DNA of 64,000 nt, from NCBI GenBank assembly GCA_964534205.1, contig CAZHQF010000002.1:64488-128487 (forward strand). The letters run 5' to 3'. The notes under the pieces are model-generated. The model worked only from the letters and a program-made list of their open reading frames with translations, had not been told where the DNA came from and made no database searches. Position numbers and translations under genes: made by a program. Of the stretch, positions 5,557 to 58,725 are shown one piece after another. This stretch comes from an uncultured Candidatus Peribacteria bacterium (GTDB lineage Bacteria; Patescibacteriota; Gracilibacteria; Peribacterales; Peribacteraceae). The stretch's first letter is position 1. Each line of letters opens with the position of its first letter.

Positions 5557-5582
5557 CTATTCCCTAATTACTATTCCCTAAT
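5557..5582 (+). repeat. Two tandem exact copies of the 12-mer CTATTCCCTAAT directly upstream of rpoC
   Basis: ctattccctaatta ctattccctaatcc, then ctcctgtcATG. Confidence 0.85.
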
Positions 5583-5592
5583 CCCTCCTGTC

Positions 5593-8500
5593 ATGCCGTT
5601 TCCGCATCAGAAGTCCGCAGCCACCGATTCGTTCGATGCTGTCGCGCTCAGTATCGCCAGCCCCGAGGACATGCTCGCGTGGTCCCGCGGCGAGGTCACC
5701 AAGGCCGAAACGGTGAACTACCGCACCCAGCGCGCGGAGCCCGACGGCCTCTTCTGTGAGCGCATTTTCGGACCCACCAAGAACTTCCAGTGCTTCTGCG
5801 GTAAGTACAAGGGTGTGCGCTACGCCGGAGTGGTGTGTGAGAAATGCGGCGTGGAAGTCACGCGCTCCATCGTCCGCCGCGAGCGCATGGGCCACATCAA
5901 TCTGGCCGTTCCTGTCACACACATCTGGTTCCTGCGCTCGTCACCGTCGCGCATCGGTCTTCTGCTGGATCTCCCCATCAAGACGCTCGAACAGATCGTC
6001 TACTTCGCCGCGTACATCGTCATCCAGGTGGATGAGGACGCCAAGAAGGAGGTGGAAAAGGAGATGGACCAGATGGCCGAGCAGCGCCGTAACCAGGTGA
6101 AGCGCGAGTACGACGACGCCAAGGAGAAGATGAAGGAGTCCGATTCCACGCGCGCCCAGCTGGATGCCCTCGATAAGGAGTTTGCAGACAAGCTGGAAGG
6201 CCTCAAGCAGAACCACAAAGATGCGCTCGAGGATCTCAAGAACCTGCGCACGGGAGCCGTGCTCTCCGAGCTCAAGTTCCGCGAGATGAACATGAAATTC
6301 GGACACGTGTTCCGCGCCGGCACCGGTGCCGAATCTCTCAAGGAGATCATCGAATCGGTGAACCTGGGTTCGTCCATCGACGGCCTCCACAAGGAGCGCG
6401 AGCAGAGCGCCGGCCAGAAGCTCAAGAAGGTGATGAAGCGCATCAAGCTCGTCTCCTCCCTCACGCAGTCCAGCATCAAGCCGGAGTGGATGATCCTCTC
6501 CCGGCTCCCGGTCATCCCCCCCGATCTGCGCCCGATGGTGCAGCTCGACGGTGGCCGCTTCGCCGCATCCGACCTCAACGATCTCTACCGCCGCGTCATC
6601 AACCGCAACAACCGCCTCAAGAAGCTCATGTCGATCGGTGCGCCGGAAGTCATCTGCCGCAACGAGAAGCGCATGTTGCAGGAAGCCGTCGATACGCTCC
6701 TCAACAACTCCGCACGCGCGGGCAAGACCCTCTTCACCGCCGGTGACCGCCGCAAACTGCGTTCGCTCTCCGACATGTTGAAGGGGAAGCAGGGACGCTT
6801 CCGCCAGAACCTCCTCGGCAAGCGCGTCGACTACTCCGGTCGTTCCGTCATCGTCGTCGGTCCGCACCTCAAACTCACGCAGTGCGGTCTGCCGAAGGAA
6901 ATGGCGATGAAGCTCTTCAAGCCGTTTGTCATCGGCCGCATCATCCGCGACGAGCTCTCCCACAACGTCAAAGCCGCCGAGCGTCTCATCCAGGATTCCG
7001 CTAAAGAGGTGTGGGACATCCTCGAAGAGGTGATCCACGATAAATACGTGCTTCTCAACCGCGCTCCGACGCTCCACCGCCTCGGTATCCAGGCGTTCAA
7101 GCCCGTGCTCGTGGAAGGTCTTGCCATCCAGCTGCACCCGCTCGTGTGTGCCGCCTTCAACGCCGACTTCGACGGTGACCAGATGGCCGTGCACGTCCCG
7201 CTCTCCGAGAAGGCCCAGGAGGAGGCCCGCGACCTCATGGCCGCGGTCAACAACGTTCTCAAGCCGTCCGCCGGTGAGCCGATCATCAACCCGATCCAGG
7301 ACATGGTGCTCGGTTGCTACTACCTCACCCGCGTCCACGACGGAAAGAAGGGTCACGGCATGATCTTCAGCTCACCCGACGAGGCGTTTCTCGCCCACGA
7401 TCACGGCGTTGTCGATCTGCAGGCCAAAATCAAGGTGCGCTTCGCGCTTCCGGGCCAGAAGCCCGAGATCATCGAGACGTCCGTCGGCCGCCTCCGTTTC
7501 CAGGAGGTTGTCCCCCCGGCGCTCGGTCTCATCAACGACACGATGAAGAAGCGCAACCTGTCCGATCTCATCGCCCGCTCGCTCGAGGTTCTCGGCCGCG
7601 AGGAGACGGTGGCGCTGGCAGACCGCATCAAGACGCTCGGTTTCGATTACGTCACGCTGTCCGGTGTGTCCATCTCGGCCACCGACATTCTGGTCCCCGC
7701 CGAGCGCAAAAAGCTCCTCGAGGACGCCAACGAGAAGATCCGCACCATCAACAACTTCTACTGGAAGGGTCTCGTCACCGCCGATGAGCGTTACAGCCAC
7801 GCCATCCGCATCTGGTCCAAGACCAAGAACGAAGTCACGTCCGCGATGATCCAGGAATTCAACCGCTACCCGGAGAACGACATCACGTACGTGATCGATT
7901 CCGGCGCACGTGGTAACTGGGGTCAGGTCACCCAGCTCGCCGGTATGAAGGGTCTCGTGGCCGATCCGTCCGGTCACACCATCGAGCTTCCGGTCCAGAG
8001 CAACCTCAAAGAGGGCTTCTCCGTGCTCGAGTACTTCACCGCCACGCACGGTGGACGCAAGGGTAAGTCCGACACCGCTCTCAAGACCGCCGAGGCCGGT
8101 TACCTCACGCGCCGTCTCGTGGACGCCGTGCAAGATGTCATCATCCGCGAGGAGGACTGCGGTTCGGAAGACGTGCACATCATCACCCGCGCCGATTCCG
8201 AGCGCATCGGTGAGAAATTCGAGAGCCGCCTGTTCGGCCGTTCCGTGGGTCAGGATCTCAAGGCCGACGGCAAGCTGATCGGCAAGCGCGACGACGAGAT
8301 CGATTCCACGATGCTCGATCTCATCCGCAGGCACAAAGTCACGGAGGTGGGCGTGCGCTCCATCATGACCTGCCGCACGCGCGGAGGTATCTGTCTCAAG
8401 TGCTACGGCCGCGACCTCGCCGACAACAAGACCGTCAAGATCGGTACGCCGGTCGGCATCATCGCCGCACAGTCCATCGGTGAACCGGGTACGCAGCTCA

Positions 8501-9468
8501 CCATGCGCACCTTCCACATGGGAGGTGTCGCCGAAGGAGCCGATATCACGCAGGGTCTCACGCGTGTCGAGGAACTCTTCGAGGCACGTTCGCCGCGCAC
8601 CCCCGCCACGCTCTCCGATATCACCGGTCGCGTCAAAGTCAGCCACCAGGGCGGCCGCAGCTTTGTGCACGTGGTTGCCGAGCAGCCGGGTGAGGATTCC
8701 TACTTCATCCCGTCGGGGTACCAGGTGGTCGTCAAAAAGGGCGATGAGGTTTCCGAGCGTACCGTCATCGCCAAGGCGTCCACGGACAAGTCCACGATCA
8801 AGGCCACGATCAGCGGCAAAATCAGCCACATCGAGCGCGGTATCGTGAAGGTCCGTCACAACGAGATCCAGGAGCGCACGTACGAGTTCGGTCCGCGCGA
8901 TTCCCTGCTCGTCAAAACGGGTTCCGTAGTCGATGCCGGTCAGGCGCTCAACGCCGGTCACTACAACCTGCAGGAACTCCTCGAGAAGAAAGGCACCTAC
9001 GCCGTGCAGAACTATGTGGTGCAGGAGGTCCAGCACATCTACGCCTCCCAGGGTCAGACCATCAACGACAAGCACCTGGAGATCATCGTGAAAAAGATGT
9101 TCAGCAAAGTCCGCGTCATCGACTCCGGTGATACCAAGTTCCTCCCCGGAGAAATCGCCGACATGGGCGAAATCCTCTACGAGAACGACCGTCTCGCCAA
9201 GATCGACAAGAAGTCTCGTGGTGCTACCTACGAGCAGTTGCTCCTCGGTATCACCCGCGTGGCTCTTGCTACCGACAGCTGGCTCGCCGGCGCCTCCTTC
9301 CAGGAGACCATCCGCGTCCTCGTGGAAGCCGCCACCACCCGCCGTATCGATCTTCTCAAGGGTCTCAAGGAAAACGTCATTATCGGCCGCCTCATTCCCA
9401 CGGGCGAGGTATACCGCAAGCGGTACCTGGAAGCCCGCGGCGAAGGCGTTGCTGAGGACGAAGAGTGA
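5593..9468 (+). CDS. rpoC: DNA-directed RNA polymerase subunit beta'
   Basis: 1291 aa. Zn-finger [23 protein letters not shown], catalytic NADFDGDQM, and a conserved C-terminal region. Confidence 0.98.
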
Positions 9469-9612
9469 TTTCACGGCTGCGAGCTGCGAGGAACGGGCTG
9501 CGAGAGCACCCTTCCCGCAGCCCGAAGCCCGTAACCCGCCGCTTTACGCCTTTACTTCACCCCCCGATCCCTCTACTATTCAGCGCCTTCTACGTTCGAT
9601 TCCTCAGTATAA

Positions 9613-10038
9613 ATGCCTACCATTAACCAGCTCGTCCGCCGCTCGCGCAAAAGCAACCGCGCAAAGTCCAAAGCTCCCGCTCTGCAGGAGGGCTGGAACG
9701 CACTCAAGATGCGCGCTGTCGCGATGCCGAAGGGCAGCCCCTTCAAGCGCGGTGTCTGCGTGAAGGTGACGACCATGACGCCCAAGAAGCCGAACTCCGC
9801 TCTCCGCAAAATCGCCCGCGTGCGTCTGGTGAACGGCAAGGAGGTGAAGGCCTACATCATGGGTGAAGGCCACAACCTGCAGGAACACTCCGTCGTGCTC
9901 ATCCGCGGCGGCCGTGTGAAAGACCTTCCGGGTGTGCGTTACCACATCGTCCGCGGCATCCTGGATACCGAAGGCGTGCGCGACCGCAAGCAGGGCCGCT
10001 CCCTCTACGGTGCAAAGAAGCCCAAAGCCGCCAAGTAA
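9613..10038 (+). CDS. rpsL: 30S ribosomal protein S12
   Basis: MPTINQLVR...[10 protein letters not shown]...[13 protein letters not shown]. Confidence 0.98.
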
Positions 10039-58364: not shown

Positions 58365-58392
58365 TGGGTATTGGTGTCAGAAGTTCTGTATT

Positions 58393-58401
58393 ATTCTACC
58401 A
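58393..58401 (-). promoter_or_regulatory. Extended -10 promoter element for the membrane protein-pilin operon
   Basis: Minus strand reads TGGTAGAAT, 29 nt upstream of the ATG, in an AT-rich region. Confidence 0.45.
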
Positions 58402-58477
58402 CAAGCCAAAATGGTTGAGTATTCACAAAAATATGAATATATATTATAAATATACTTCTAATCTCTCTTTGCAGTGA

Positions 58478-58693
58478 TTACATGTTGGAGTAGAACTGCT
58501 TTTTGCGGTTCTGCTGGCGGTATTCCTCGCGCTTCAGGGCGCGCTTGCGGCGCAGGCGTGCCGTGGGCTTACGCTTGTGGATGGCGCGCTCGCGGAGCAT
58601 CTTCAGAATACCGGTCTTCTGGACCTGCTTCTTAAAGCGCTGCTGGAGCCTGTCGGAGGACTCGTCGCCGTGTTTGATCGCGTAGATAGCCAT
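58478..58693 (-). CDS. rpsU: 30S ribosomal protein S21
   Basis: 71 aa, very basic. SDRLQQRFKKQVQKTGILKMLRERAIHKRKPTARLRRKRALKRE. Confidence 0.88.
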   Translation of the reverse strand: MAIYAIKHGDESSDRLQQRFKKQVQKTGILKMLRERAIHKRKPTARLRRKRALKREEYRQQNRKKQFYSNM

Positions 58694-58725
58694 AAAGCTG
58701 GGAGATGGTAGGGAAAGGACGGTGC

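What the first reader, a model, noticed from the sequence alone, without database searches (positions are those of the whole stretch)
5575..58720. Pyrimidine CCTCC/CCCTC tract instead of a purine Shine-Dalgarno upstream of many housekeeping start codons
Seen, on the coding strand immediately 5' of the ATG:
- rpoC: ccctcctgtcATG
- fusA: tctcctccatcATG
- nrdJ: ccctcccacaccgATG
- gene at 22415: cctccctccctATG
- gene at 33126: ttctccccatttatATG
- tsf: cccccacccccATG
- rpsB: cccctccgtcATG
- glyQS: cccctcccttatcaATG
- TIMP-SLH gene: ccttcccccgtatctATG
- atpE: ccctcccgcgttATG
- atpF: cttcctccccATG
- atpA: cactcctccccATG
- rpsU: ccatctcccagctttATG
Only four genes show a classical SD: 38762 (AAGGAGG), 15954 (GGAGG), 55949 on the minus strand (AAGGAG) and 37991 (GGGAG). 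Three of these four lie in visibly AT-richer patches. Established: the canonical 16S 3' tail is itself CCUCC, so these tracts cannot pair with it. Inference: translation initiation here may rely on an altered anti-SD, on S1-type recognition of unstructured pyrimidine leaders, or on another factor. The few SD-bearing genes may be recent acquisitions. Caveat: the starts were chosen by me. For conserved proteins the N-termini fit the family.
Basis: partly seen in the sequence, partly recalled or inferred. Interest (0 to 1): 0.66.

Follow-up and report, generated by a model that had tools for sequence, protein, structure and literature searches.

The report
G-poor pyrimidine leaders replace Shine-Dalgarno
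This Peribacteria (candidate phyla radiation) genome has no Shine-Dalgarno signal, in line with the lineage's published mutated 16S tail; most strongly expressed genes are instead preceded by a guanine-poor, C/U-rich, weakly folded stretch, which is a composition signal and not a CCUCC "word".

Summary
With a motif-blind rule (first ATG of each ORF), G falls to 0.06-0.13 and C rises to 0.4-0.5 at -13..-7. CCTCC-type pentamers precede 13/48 starts against 35/656 internal ATGs (p=4.5e-6). SD-like words are at or below background.

The window is Candidatus Peribacteria, probably Ca. Peribacter riflensis or a close relative. Published work already lists this lineage as SD-scarce, with a 16S tail of GAACACUUCCUUA instead of GAUCACCUCCUUA.

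The same G-poor, pyrimidine-rich leaders occur in about 80 related species (GC 0.36-0.62). Leader sequence is not conserved. After per-sequence shuffling, CCTCC is not enriched in relatives (44 observed, 43.8 expected). The signal is therefore compositional.

G-depletion continues into the first ten codons and halves the predicted folding at starts. Promoter-proximal genes look leaderless.

Best explanation: SD-independent initiation on unstructured C/U-rich leaders, possibly helped by bS1. An invariant purine extension (ACCAGGGAA) follows the 16S tail, but it pairs with the spacer and shows no specific match to leaders. The four "SD genes" occur at chance frequency.

This is a new variant of a known kind, of moderate interest.

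The parts
5555..5592 (+). rpoC leader: (CCCTAAT)4.6 heptamer array followed by CCCTCC (5583-5588), ATG at 5593
   Evidence: rpoC confirmed
10046..10083 (+). rpsL-rpsG intercistronic spacer: (CCCTATT)4.6 array, G-poor, ATG at 10084
11645..11669 (+). G-free C/T/A leader (cattcccttcacacccacaccc) of a hypothetical 140-aa protein, ATG at 11670
12187..12208 (+). fusA leader aatcttttttctcctccatc, no G in -20..-1
18564..18587 (+). nrdJ leader gtgtttcctttccctcccacaccg
22200..22219 (+). Pyrimidine leader of small membrane protein (ATG 22220); tandem paralogue of the next gene
22390..22414 (+). Pyrimidine-only leader ttttccctcttcctccctccct (20/20 Y) of a small membrane protein, ATG 22415
33665..33688 (+). 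G-free leader ccaaattccttcccatctcttcc of a 44-aa ORF (ATG 33689)
36867..36885 (-). tsf leader ttttcccccaccccc (rpsB-tsf spacer), ATG at 36866
37636..37665 (-). rpsB leader ccttttcacccttttacccctccgtc, ATG at 37635
40619..40645 (-). glyQS leader cctttcgacccacccctcccttatca, ATG at 40618
48520..48546 (+). atpE leader ctcttttctttccttccctcccgcgtt
48905..48931 (+). atpF leader ccttccttcttcctcccc
49415..49434 (+). atpH leader tcttcccgctctcctcag (overlaps the end of atpF)
49780..49806 (+). atpA leader cctttcctgatttccctcactcctcccc
51335..51365 (+). atpA-atpG spacer: (ATTCCTA)4.4 heptamer array running up to the atpG start (TTG 51364 under the longest-ORF rule)
58694..58720 (-). rpsU (divergent bS21) leader cctttccctaccatctcccagcttt, ATG at 58693
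38750..38756 (+). AAGGAGG 5 nt before ATG 38762 (128-aa hypothetical); the best SD-like site; could pair with tail UUCCUUC using one G.U
   Evidence: frequency test
15942..15946 (+). GGAGG before ATG 15954 (92-aa hypothetical)
18276..18288 (-). TACACT -10-like box ending 7 nt before ATG 18275 (FMN reductase): candidate leaderless start
   Evidence: TACACT is the top upstream motif reported for Ca. P. riflensis

Best explanation
The window belongs to a Peribacteria (CPR) genome whose ribosomes no longer use Shine-Dalgarno pairing. Start sites are marked by a guanine-depleted, C/U-rich region that runs from about -20 into the first ten codons and is strongest at -13..-7, where an SD would normally sit.

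An RNA segment without G cannot form G-C or G-U pairs with its equally G-poor surroundings, so the start codon stays single-stranded even at about 50% local GC. The 30S subunit is proposed to bind this open, pyrimidine-rich stretch directly, probably with help from the short bS1 found in CPR bacteria. fMet-tRNA would then select the AUG, with a pyrimidine favoured at -1.

In a 59% GC genome such a tract is C-rich, so strings like CCUCC and CCCUC arise by composition. Promoter-proximal genes appear to use a second route: leaderless or near-leaderless mRNAs.

Shown here: absence of SD, G-depletion, conservation of composition across the clade, reduced predicted folding, and the position of -10-like boxes. 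Inferred: direct 30S or bS1 capture.
For: Taxon and published background:
- rpoC is 70-93% identical (best tblastn segment) to Peribacteria/Peregrinibacteria MAGs.
- Ca. P. riflensis is listed as SD-scarce (7% of genes) and lacking CCUCC. The tail is GAACACTTCCTTA.
- 64 metagenomic 16S 3' ends carry this tail.

Signal in the window:
- G 0.06-0.17 and C 0.40-0.52 at -13..-7. 21% of leaders have >=15 Y and <=1 G, against 0.2% of controls.

Signal across the clade:
- 475 + 352 + 99 starts show the same G-depletion (p 1e-19 to 1e-115).
- SD-like words and the own-tail complement GGAAG are depleted in the two rpoC-locus sets. In the rRNA-locus set only GGAAG is.
- In homology-anchored rpoC, fusA and rpsG leaders from 47-61 species, mean G is 1.0-1.4 per 20 nt and mean pyrimidines 15-16 per 20 nt. 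Pairwise identity is only 0.33-0.39.

Composition rather than motif:
- CCTCC 44 observed vs 43.8 expected, and TCCCT 36 vs 36.9, after per-sequence shuffles in relatives.

Structure:
- Mean MFE of 40-nt windows is -4.0 to -4.7 kcal/mol at the start and -8 to -10 in coding sequence.
- Removing the G/C and A/T skew at constant GC makes -30..+40 about 2 kcal/mol more stable (p=7e-8). It lowers the unpaired probability of -20..+3 from 0.58 to 0.49.
- Shuffling the same bases has no effect.
- Codons 2-11 are also G-depleted (position 1: 0.23 vs 0.37; position 3: 0.20 vs 0.30) and C-enriched. This matches the symmetric bias described for non-SD genes.

Selection:
- Leader (Y minus G) correlates with codon bias: rho 0.41 (p=0.0035) in the window and 0.32 (p=1e-21) in the rpoC-locus relatives; no correlation in the 99 rRNA-locus starts (rho 0.04).

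Leaderless route:
- The 3' ends of -10-like boxes pile up at -10..-7 from the ATG (131 of 705 promoter-proximal genes).
- rpsL in relatives has CTTTAC-17-TACCAT ending about 9 nt before the ATG.

bS1:
- CPR bS1 is present but short, with 3-4 domains.
Against: - No experiment bears on this: all folding values are predictions, and no TSS, Ribo-seq or binding data exist for this uncultured lineage.
- The structural gain attributable to the skew is modest (about 2 kcal/mol).
- An A-rich leader, as in Bacteroidetes, would be at least as unstructured. The preference for C/U over A therefore hints at something beyond structure avoidance, such as a pyrimidine-preferring protein or rRNA contact.
- In the window itself TCCCT (14 vs 5.0, z 4.2) and CCTCC (11 vs 5.3, z 2.9) exceed the compositional expectation. 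Four of the 14 TCCCT come from two heptamer arrays.
- The correlation with codon bias is partly confounded by gene-call and start-call quality.
- The organism's own 16S was not available.
Confidence: 0.6

Rival explanations
1. Reverse-polarity Shine-Dalgarno. The pyrimidine tract (UUCCCU/CCCUCC) base-pairs with a purine-rich rRNA segment, namely the invariant ACCAGGGAA that directly follows the 16S tail, if that segment is kept in the mature rRNA.
For: - 62 of 64 Peribacteria-type 16S ends are followed by the invariant 9-mer ACCAGGGAA, after which the spacer diverges.
- TTCCCT, the exact complement of AGGGAA, is the most enriched 6-mer upstream of window starts (8/48 vs 0.2%).
- Mean duplex energy of leaders with CCAGGGAA is -6.2 kcal/mol, against -5.4 for internal controls. 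Only 1 of 60 permuted probes does as well.
Against: - TCCCT is not enriched beyond composition in relatives (36 vs 36.9), although they share the extension.
- The permuted probes that keep a GGG/GGA run score the same.
- TCCCT positions are scattered from -1 to -32, whereas CCTCC, which the extension cannot pair, sits at -3..-11.
- CAGGG pairs with a variable spacer partner (CUCUGG, CCUGG, CCCUG, CUUUGG) in 39/40 unique sequences, against 45% for shuffled spacers. It therefore looks like a pre-rRNA hairpin, comparable to the CUCCUU-UCU-AAGGAG junction of Gram-positives (own knowledge).
- No other lineage-specific purine tract was seen in 29 full 16S genes.
Confidence: 0.08
2. A sequence-specific protein reads a CCUCC-like pyrimidine word. 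One candidate is a ribosomal pocket of the bS21/bS18/bS6 type that binds the anti-SD in Bacteroidia and is left free here by the mutated tail. Another is a KH or cold-shock-type factor.
For: - CCTCC/CTCC 3' ends cluster at -3..-8 in the window.
- C/U rather than A is preferred.
- A divergent bS21 gene is present with its own tract.
- The Bacteroidia pocket precedent is in PMC9976891 (abstract).
- Most CPR have lost Era, the factor that constrains GAUCA-CCUCC.
Against: - There is no word-level enrichment in relatives and no sequence conservation among orthologous leaders.
- Shuffling the leader bases leaves the predicted folding unchanged, so composition alone accounts for the folding effect.
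- No candidate protein was identified.
Confidence: 0.07
3. The tract is not a translation signal. It could be a by-product of slippage-generated heptamer arrays, strand mutational skew, or a transcription element such as a C-rich, G-poor Rho-loading site.
For: - Many leaders are built from 6-9-nt tandem arrays.
- C-rich, G-poor RNA is the classic rut composition (own knowledge).
- After-stop flanks are also somewhat pyrimidine-rich.
Against: - The G minimum is positioned at -13..-7 relative to the ATG, and G-depletion extends into the first codons.
- The bias follows gene orientation on both strands and is stronger than in after-stop flanks (p=2e-4 to 5e-14 in the window and rpoC loci; weaker, p=0.02-0.07, in the rRNA loci).
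- It correlates with codon bias.
- Arrays near starts are G-poor on the gene strand (0.11), against 0.20 elsewhere.
- Window GC skew is near zero.
Confidence: 0.1
4. Artefact: mis-called starts or strand confusion, with a normal SD appearing once the starts are corrected.
For: Two of the thirteen (33126 and 47348) are unvalidated.
Against: - A motif-blind first-ATG rule gives the same signal.
- Family profiles align from residues 1-7 for most of the conserved proteins.
- Orthologues in 47-61 species share the N-terminus and the G-poor leader.
- SD-like words are not enriched at any candidate ATG.
Confidence: 0.01

Closest known systems
SD-scarce prokaryotes lacking a conserved CCUCC anti-SD (class iv of Estrada, Garciarrubio & Merino 2024, PMC10783764; Amin et al. 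2018, PMC6107228)
   Same: Ca. Peribacter riflensis and two other Peribacteria are listed by name, with tail GAACACUUCCUUA and about 7% SD genes. The window shows exactly this lack of SD.
   Different: Those papers report only the absence of SD. Amin's top motif was TACACT, probably a -10 box. Neither describes a G-poor pyrimidine leader, its conservation across the clade, or the invariant extension after the 16S tail.
SD-independent initiation in Bacteroidetes/Bacteroidia (PMC3155529; PMC9976891) and non-SD genes in general (Nakagawa et al. 2017, PMC5397173)
   Same: No SD enrichment, weak predicted structure around the start, and symmetric nucleotide bias on both sides of the start codon.
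   Different: Bacteroidetes leaders are A/U-rich with a drop in GC, and their anti-SD is intact but sequestered. Here the leaders are C/U-rich at about 50% GC, G alone is removed, and the anti-SD core itself is mutated.
bS1-dependent capture of U-rich or pyrimidine-rich leaders (Boni 1991 and Komarova 2005, as cited in PMC5397173; Duval 2013, PMC3858243)
   Same: A single-stranded pyrimidine-rich tract lies immediately upstream of the start and SD pairing is weak or absent.
   Different: In E. coli the S1 site lies upstream of an SD and is A/U-rich. CPR bS1 has only 3-4 domains. No binding data exist for this lineage.
Leaderless mRNAs (Actinobacteria, Deinococcus, archaea; GeneMarkS-2 classes, PMC6028130)
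   Same: -10-like boxes end 7-10 nt before the ATG in a subset of promoter-proximal genes.
   Different: The tract-bearing genes, such as the atp operon, rpsG, fusA and rpoC, are mostly operon-internal or have real leaders. Leaderless initiation is a parallel route and does not explain the tract.
Intergenic heptamer direct repeats next to start codons (TAACTGA repeats of Beggiatoaceae, cyanobacteria and Bacteroidetes, MacGregor 2015, PMC4679880; cyanobacterial STRR, own knowledge)
   Same: Tandem 7-nt units in 2-6 copies lie within a few nt upstream of start codons, canonical RBSs are rare there, and ribosomal protein operons are included. The window has such arrays before rpoC, rpsG and atpG.
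   Different: There is no shared unit here: almost every array has its own heptamer. Arrays near starts are simply G-poor.
Oligopyrimidine tracts of eukaryotic and viral mRNAs (picornavirus Yn-Xm-AUG, 5'TOP mRNAs; own knowledge)
   Same: A pyrimidine tract lies upstream of the AUG in translation-machinery mRNAs. For Yn-Xm-AUG, pairing with a purine-rich rRNA 3' region has been proposed.
   Different: The systems and factors are unrelated, so this is an analogy only. Complementarity to rRNA was not supported here.

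Membership tests
Canonical Shine-Dalgarno initiation | Purine-rich GGAGG-type motif enriched 5-10 nt upstream of starts | tested here: not met
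   GGAGG-type 3/48 vs 36/656 internal ATGs (p=0.74). GGAG/GAGG/AGGA are depleted in the rpoC-locus relatives (p 4e-6 to 1e-9).
Canonical Shine-Dalgarno initiation | CCUCC core in the 16S 3' tail | tested here: not met
   The lineage tail is GAACACUUCCUUA, seen in 64 metagenomic loci. The organism's own rRNA is not in the window.
Variant SD with matching variant anti-SD | Upstream motif complementary to the mutated tail (GGAAG/AGGAA) | tested here: not met
   GGAAG-type 2/48 vs 55/656 in the window, and depleted in relatives. Leaders pair worse with the own tail than controls do (-2.9 vs -4.5 kcal/mol).
SD-independent, structure-avoiding initiation (non-SD genes) | Reduced predicted secondary structure centred on the start codon | tested here: met
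   MFE -4.0 to -4.7 at the start vs -8 to -10 kcal/mol in coding sequence. The skew accounts for about 2 kcal/mol.
SD-independent, structure-avoiding initiation (non-SD genes) | Symmetric nucleotide bias upstream and downstream of the start | tested here: met
   G is depleted and C enriched both in -20..-1 and in codons 2-11.
Bacteroidetes-type initiation | A-rich (Kozak-like) leader with a GC drop; anti-SD intact but sequestered | tested here: not met
   Leader A is 0.2-0.3, the same as controls. Local GC is about 0.50. The anti-SD core is mutated.
bS1-mediated leader capture | Single-stranded pyrimidine-rich tract adjacent to the start | tested here: met
bS1-mediated leader capture | Functional bS1 that binds the tract | not testable with these tools
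   Literature only: CPR bS1 has 3-4 domains. No rpsA gene in the window.
Leaderless mRNA | Promoter -10 box ending about 7 nt before the start codon | tested here: inconclusive
   Met for a subset (peak at -10..-7, 131/705; rpsL in relatives; 18275 and 11523 in the window). Not applicable to operon-internal tract genes. No TSS data.
rRNA-complementary oligopyrimidine (reverse SD) | Specific, position-fixed complementarity to an accessible purine tract of mature rRNA | tested here: inconclusive
   TTCCCT is enriched in the window but TCCCT is not enriched beyond composition in relatives. The probe is no better than permuted G-run probes. The purine tract pairs with the spacer. The mature 3' end is unknown.
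Intergenic heptamer repeat systems (TAACTGA/STRR) | One conserved heptamer unit reused genome-wide | tested here: not met
   110 period-7 intergenic arrays, nearly all with different units.

The most novel reading that the evidence does not exclude
The pyrimidine tract may be a true ribosome-recruiting element with inverted polarity. The mRNA would carry an anti-SD-like CCUCC/UUCCCU tract that is bound by one of two partners. One is a purine tract retained at the extended 3' end of Peribacteria 16S rRNA (ACCAGGGAA). The other is the platform pocket that holds the anti-SD in other bacteria. Either would be a replacement for Shine-Dalgarno pairing that evolved after the anti-SD decayed.
Probability: 0.08. 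Interest if true: 0.85.

Novelty: new variant of a known kind. Interest (0 to 1): 0.45.

Why it matters
Loss of Shine-Dalgarno pairing is known in Bacteroidetes, some endosymbionts and parts of the CPR, and published lists include Peribacter. How starts are marked in high-GC SD-less genomes has not been described.

Here the answer appears to be removal of one base, G, on both sides of the start codon. That yields C/U-rich leaders which keep GC high but stay unfolded. Leaderless transcripts are used alongside them.

This has three consequences:
- Gene callers applied to CPR metagenomes mis-place starts when they expect an SD.
- It gives design rules for expressing genes in, or from, these uncultured bacteria.
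- It gives a view of how initiation signals are rebuilt once the anti-SD decays.

The invariant extension after the 16S tail, and the self-complementary tail substitutions, raise testable questions about 16S 3'-end maturation in a lineage where most CPR have lost Era.

Tried and rejected
- **Strand or start artefact.** Rejected by the first-ATG rule, family-profile N-termini and orthologue N-termini.
- **A discrete CCTCC motif.** Rejected clade-wide by per-sequence shuffles. The excess in the window is small and partly due to two heptamer arrays.
- **Pairing with the lineage's own tail, or SD rescue.** Leaders are less complementary to the tail than controls are.
- **Pairing with the ACCAGGGAA extension.** No specificity over permuted G-run probes, and the extension pairs with the spacer. 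RNAalifold on an ungapped alignment only returned the invariant tail hairpin, which is uninformative.
- **Other purine tracts in 29 full-length Peribacteria 16S genes.** Only universal GGGAGG/GGAGGA sites and a variable loop were found.
- **Searches with no result.** No rRNA or tRNA in the window. No 16S in the 80 rpoC loci. An exact-protein contig lookup for fusA found nothing. The Gracilibacteria 'hypervariation' paper turned out to concern a coding repeat.
- **SD-bearing genes as horizontal acquisitions.** No compositional support.
- **Tail mini-hairpin GGAA-CAC-UUCC.** The two substitutions are mutually complementary, but the predicted stability is only -1.9 kcal/mol, against -1.5 for the canonical tail. 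It is recorded only as a note.

Full report
**Identity of the window**

The window has GC of about 0.59 with no rRNA or tRNA. It carries rpoC-rpsL-rpsG-fusA, nrdJ, rpsB-tsf, glyQS, atpDC, atpBEFHAG, a divergent rpsU, gyrB, SLH/sortase proteins, a pilin-like protein and Cys-rich DUF4215 proteins.

rpoC is 70-93% identical (best tblastn segment) to 80 MAGs, most of them named Candidatus Peribacteria, Peribacteraceae or Peregrinibacteria. The GC content and the DUF4215 proteins fit the description of Ca. Peribacter riflensis (1.25 Mb, 58.5% GC). The window is probably that species or a close relative.

**Checking the observation**

Every quoted string is present immediately 5' of an ATG on the coding strand. 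Family profiles align from residues 1-7 for most of the conserved proteins, so those starts are right.

In 48 window genes:
- G drops to 0.06-0.17 at -13..-7, against 0.23-0.37 upstream of internal ATGs.
- C rises to 0.40-0.52 at -11..-7.
- A pyrimidine occupies -1 in about 80% of genes.
- 21% of leaders have >=15 pyrimidines and <=1 G in -20..-1, against 0.2% of controls and 2% of after-stop flanks.
- CCTCC-type pentamers precede 13/48 starts against 35/656 controls (p=4.5e-6).

SD-like words, and the complement of the lineage's own tail (GGAAG), are at or below background.

The four SD-like sites exist, but their number is what chance gives. The three ORFs measured have normal GC.

**What is already published**

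- Amin et al. 2018 and Estrada et al. 2024 list Ca. P. riflensis and other Peribacteria among organisms whose 16S tail lacks CCUCC (GAACACUUCCUUA). About 7% of their genes have an SD.
- Amin's best upstream motif for P. riflensis was TACACT.
- Tsurumaki et al. 2022 note that Peregrinibacteria often lack bS21 and that CPR bS1 has 3-4 domains.
- Most CPR have lost Era, the factor that reads GAUCA-CCUCC.
- None of the papers read here describes a pyrimidine-rich leader in this lineage.

**Clade-wide test**

The first-ATG rule gave 475 starts in relatives with GC >= 0.52, 352 starts in relatives with GC < 0.52, and 99 starts in loci next to Peribacteria-type rRNA operons. All show the same G-depletion at -13..-7, with T replacing C as genomic GC falls.

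For rpoC, fusA and rpsG, orthologues with matching N-termini in 47-61 species have on average 1.0-1.4 G and 15-16 pyrimidines in -20..-1. Ungapped pairwise identity of these leaders is only 0.33-0.39. Composition is conserved; sequence is not.

After shuffling each leader's own bases, CCTCC (44 vs 43.8) and TCCCT (36 vs 36.9) are not enriched in relatives. In the window TCCCT (14 vs 5.0) and CCTCC (11 vs 5.3) show a modest excess. Four of the TCCCT come from the (CCCTAAT)n and (CCCTATT)n arrays before rpoC and rpsG.

The CCUCC look is therefore what a G-free, A-poor tract produces in a 59% GC genome.

**Mechanism**

- Predicted folding of 40-nt windows is about half as strong at starts (-4.0 to -4.7 kcal/mol) as inside genes (-8 to -10). 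Local GC only falls from about 0.60 to 0.50.
- Randomising G<->C and A<->T in the leader at constant GC stabilises -30..+40 by about 2 kcal/mol (p=7e-8) and lowers the unpaired probability of -20..+3. Shuffling the same bases changes nothing.
- Codons 2-11 are also G-depleted and C-enriched. This is the symmetric bias proposed to keep non-SD starts open.
- Leader pyrimidine excess correlates with codon bias: rho 0.41 in the window and 0.32 in the rpoC-locus relatives, but 0.04 in the rRNA-locus starts.
- The 3' ends of -10-like boxes pile up 7-10 nt before the ATG of promoter-proximal genes. rpsL in relatives shows CTTTAC-17-TACCAT about 9 nt before the ATG. Leaderless or near-leaderless mRNAs therefore form a second route, which also explains Amin's TACACT.

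I conclude that initiation is SD-independent on open, G-poor, C/U-rich leaders, probably with bS1. The capture step is inferred, not shown.

**The altered-anti-SD idea**

I retrieved 64 metagenomic 16S 3' ends with the Peribacteria tail. All read ...GGAACACUUCCUU. In 62 of them the next nine bases are the invariant ACCAGGGAA, after which the spacer diverges.

AGGGAA is complementary to UUCCCU, which is the top 6-mer upstream of window starts. I therefore tested a reverse-polarity SD:
- TCCCT is not enriched beyond composition in relatives.
- Permuted probes with a G-run bind leaders equally well.
- TCCCT positions are scattered from -1 to -32.
- CAGGG pairs with a variable spacer partner in 39/40 unique sequences, against 45% for shuffled spacers.

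The extension therefore looks like a pre-rRNA hairpin. No other lineage-specific purine tract appears in 29 full 16S genes. The reverse-SD reading is not excluded for this organism, but it is unlikely (about 8%).

**Verdict**

The phenomenon is a compositional variant of SD-independent initiation in a lineage already known to lack SD pairing. Interest is moderate.

Noticed in passing
window 5555-5586, 10046-10077, 36887-36911, 40673-40704, 40713-40746, 45323-45353, 48823-48844, 51335-51365 (period 7); 24100-24131, 31143-31174, 61523-61552 (period 9); also L001-L080: Intergenic regions carry many short tandem arrays of period 6-9, with period 7 dominant. They average about 4.5 copies and have a median length of 31 nt. 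Almost every array has a different unit. There are 292 such arrays in 1.43 Mb of window plus relatives. Arrays ending within 40 nt of a start are G-poor on the gene strand (0.11 vs 0.20 elsewhere). They resemble the TAACTGA/STRR heptamer repeats (PMC4679880) but have no shared unit. Their function is unknown.
   Followed up: partly
L081-L144 (16S 3' ends), e.g. L093 around position 3536 on the minus strand: An invariant 9-mer, ACCAGGGAA, directly follows the 16S tail GGAACACUUCCUU in 62/64 loci with GC 0.37-0.58. CAGGG pairs with a co-varying spacer segment (CUCUGG, CCUGG, CCCUG, CUUUGG). This is a conserved hairpin at the 16S/ITS boundary. Whether it is part of the mature rRNA is unknown.
   Followed up: partly
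L081-L144, 16S tail: The two substitutions that distinguish the Peribacteria tail from the canonical one (GGAUCACCUCC to GGAACACUUCC) are complementary to each other (A:U). They allow a GGAA/UUCC four-pair hairpin with a three-base loop that would hide the anti-SD remnant. Predicted stability is only -1.9 kcal/mol, against -1.5 for the canonical tail.
   Followed up: partly
window 18276-18288(-), 11524-11545(-); relatives L001-L080 upstream of rpsL: -10-like boxes (TACACT, TACCAT, TACTAT, TATAAT) end 7-10 nt before ATGs. In relatives rpsL has CTTTAC-17-TACCAT. This suggests frequent leaderless or near-leaderless mRNAs, and it explains the TACACT motif reported for Ca. P. riflensis by Amin et al. 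2018.
   Followed up: partly
window 22220-22381 and 22415-22678 (+): Two adjacent small ORFs begin with the identical peptide MKQDSWLYSDSFLKR. Both have pure pyrimidine leaders and neither has a Pfam hit. They look like tandem paralogues encoding small membrane proteins.
   Followed up: no
window 65-3913 (+), 33953-35503 (+), 56542-57774 (-): These ORFs contain DUF4215 (Cys-rich repeat) domains. The 1282-aa ORF has an atypical codon-position GC pattern (0.55/0.64/0.65). 56542-57774 combines a type IV pilin N-methylation motif with DUF4215. This matches the Cys-rich surface proteins described for Ca. P. riflensis.
   Followed up: partly
window 43953-45836 and 47493-52296 (+): The ATP synthase genes are split and reordered. 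atpD-atpC comes first. It is followed by an SLH-domain gene on the opposite strand (46236-47420) and then by atpB-E-F-H-A-G.
   Followed up: no
window 58478-58693 (-): A 71-aa bS21-like protein scores just below the NCBIfam cutoff (25.6 vs 28.95 bits). Peregrinibacteria are reported to lack bS21 frequently, so divergent copies may have been missed in surveys.
   Followed up: no
window 14400-15900: This is the lowest-GC stretch of the window (0.43-0.48 in 400-nt windows). It has weak coding signal and lies just upstream of the GGAGG-preceded ORF at 15954.
   Followed up: no
It is probably a complete genome of that species and could supply the organism's own rRNA operon and all gene starts.
   Followed up: no
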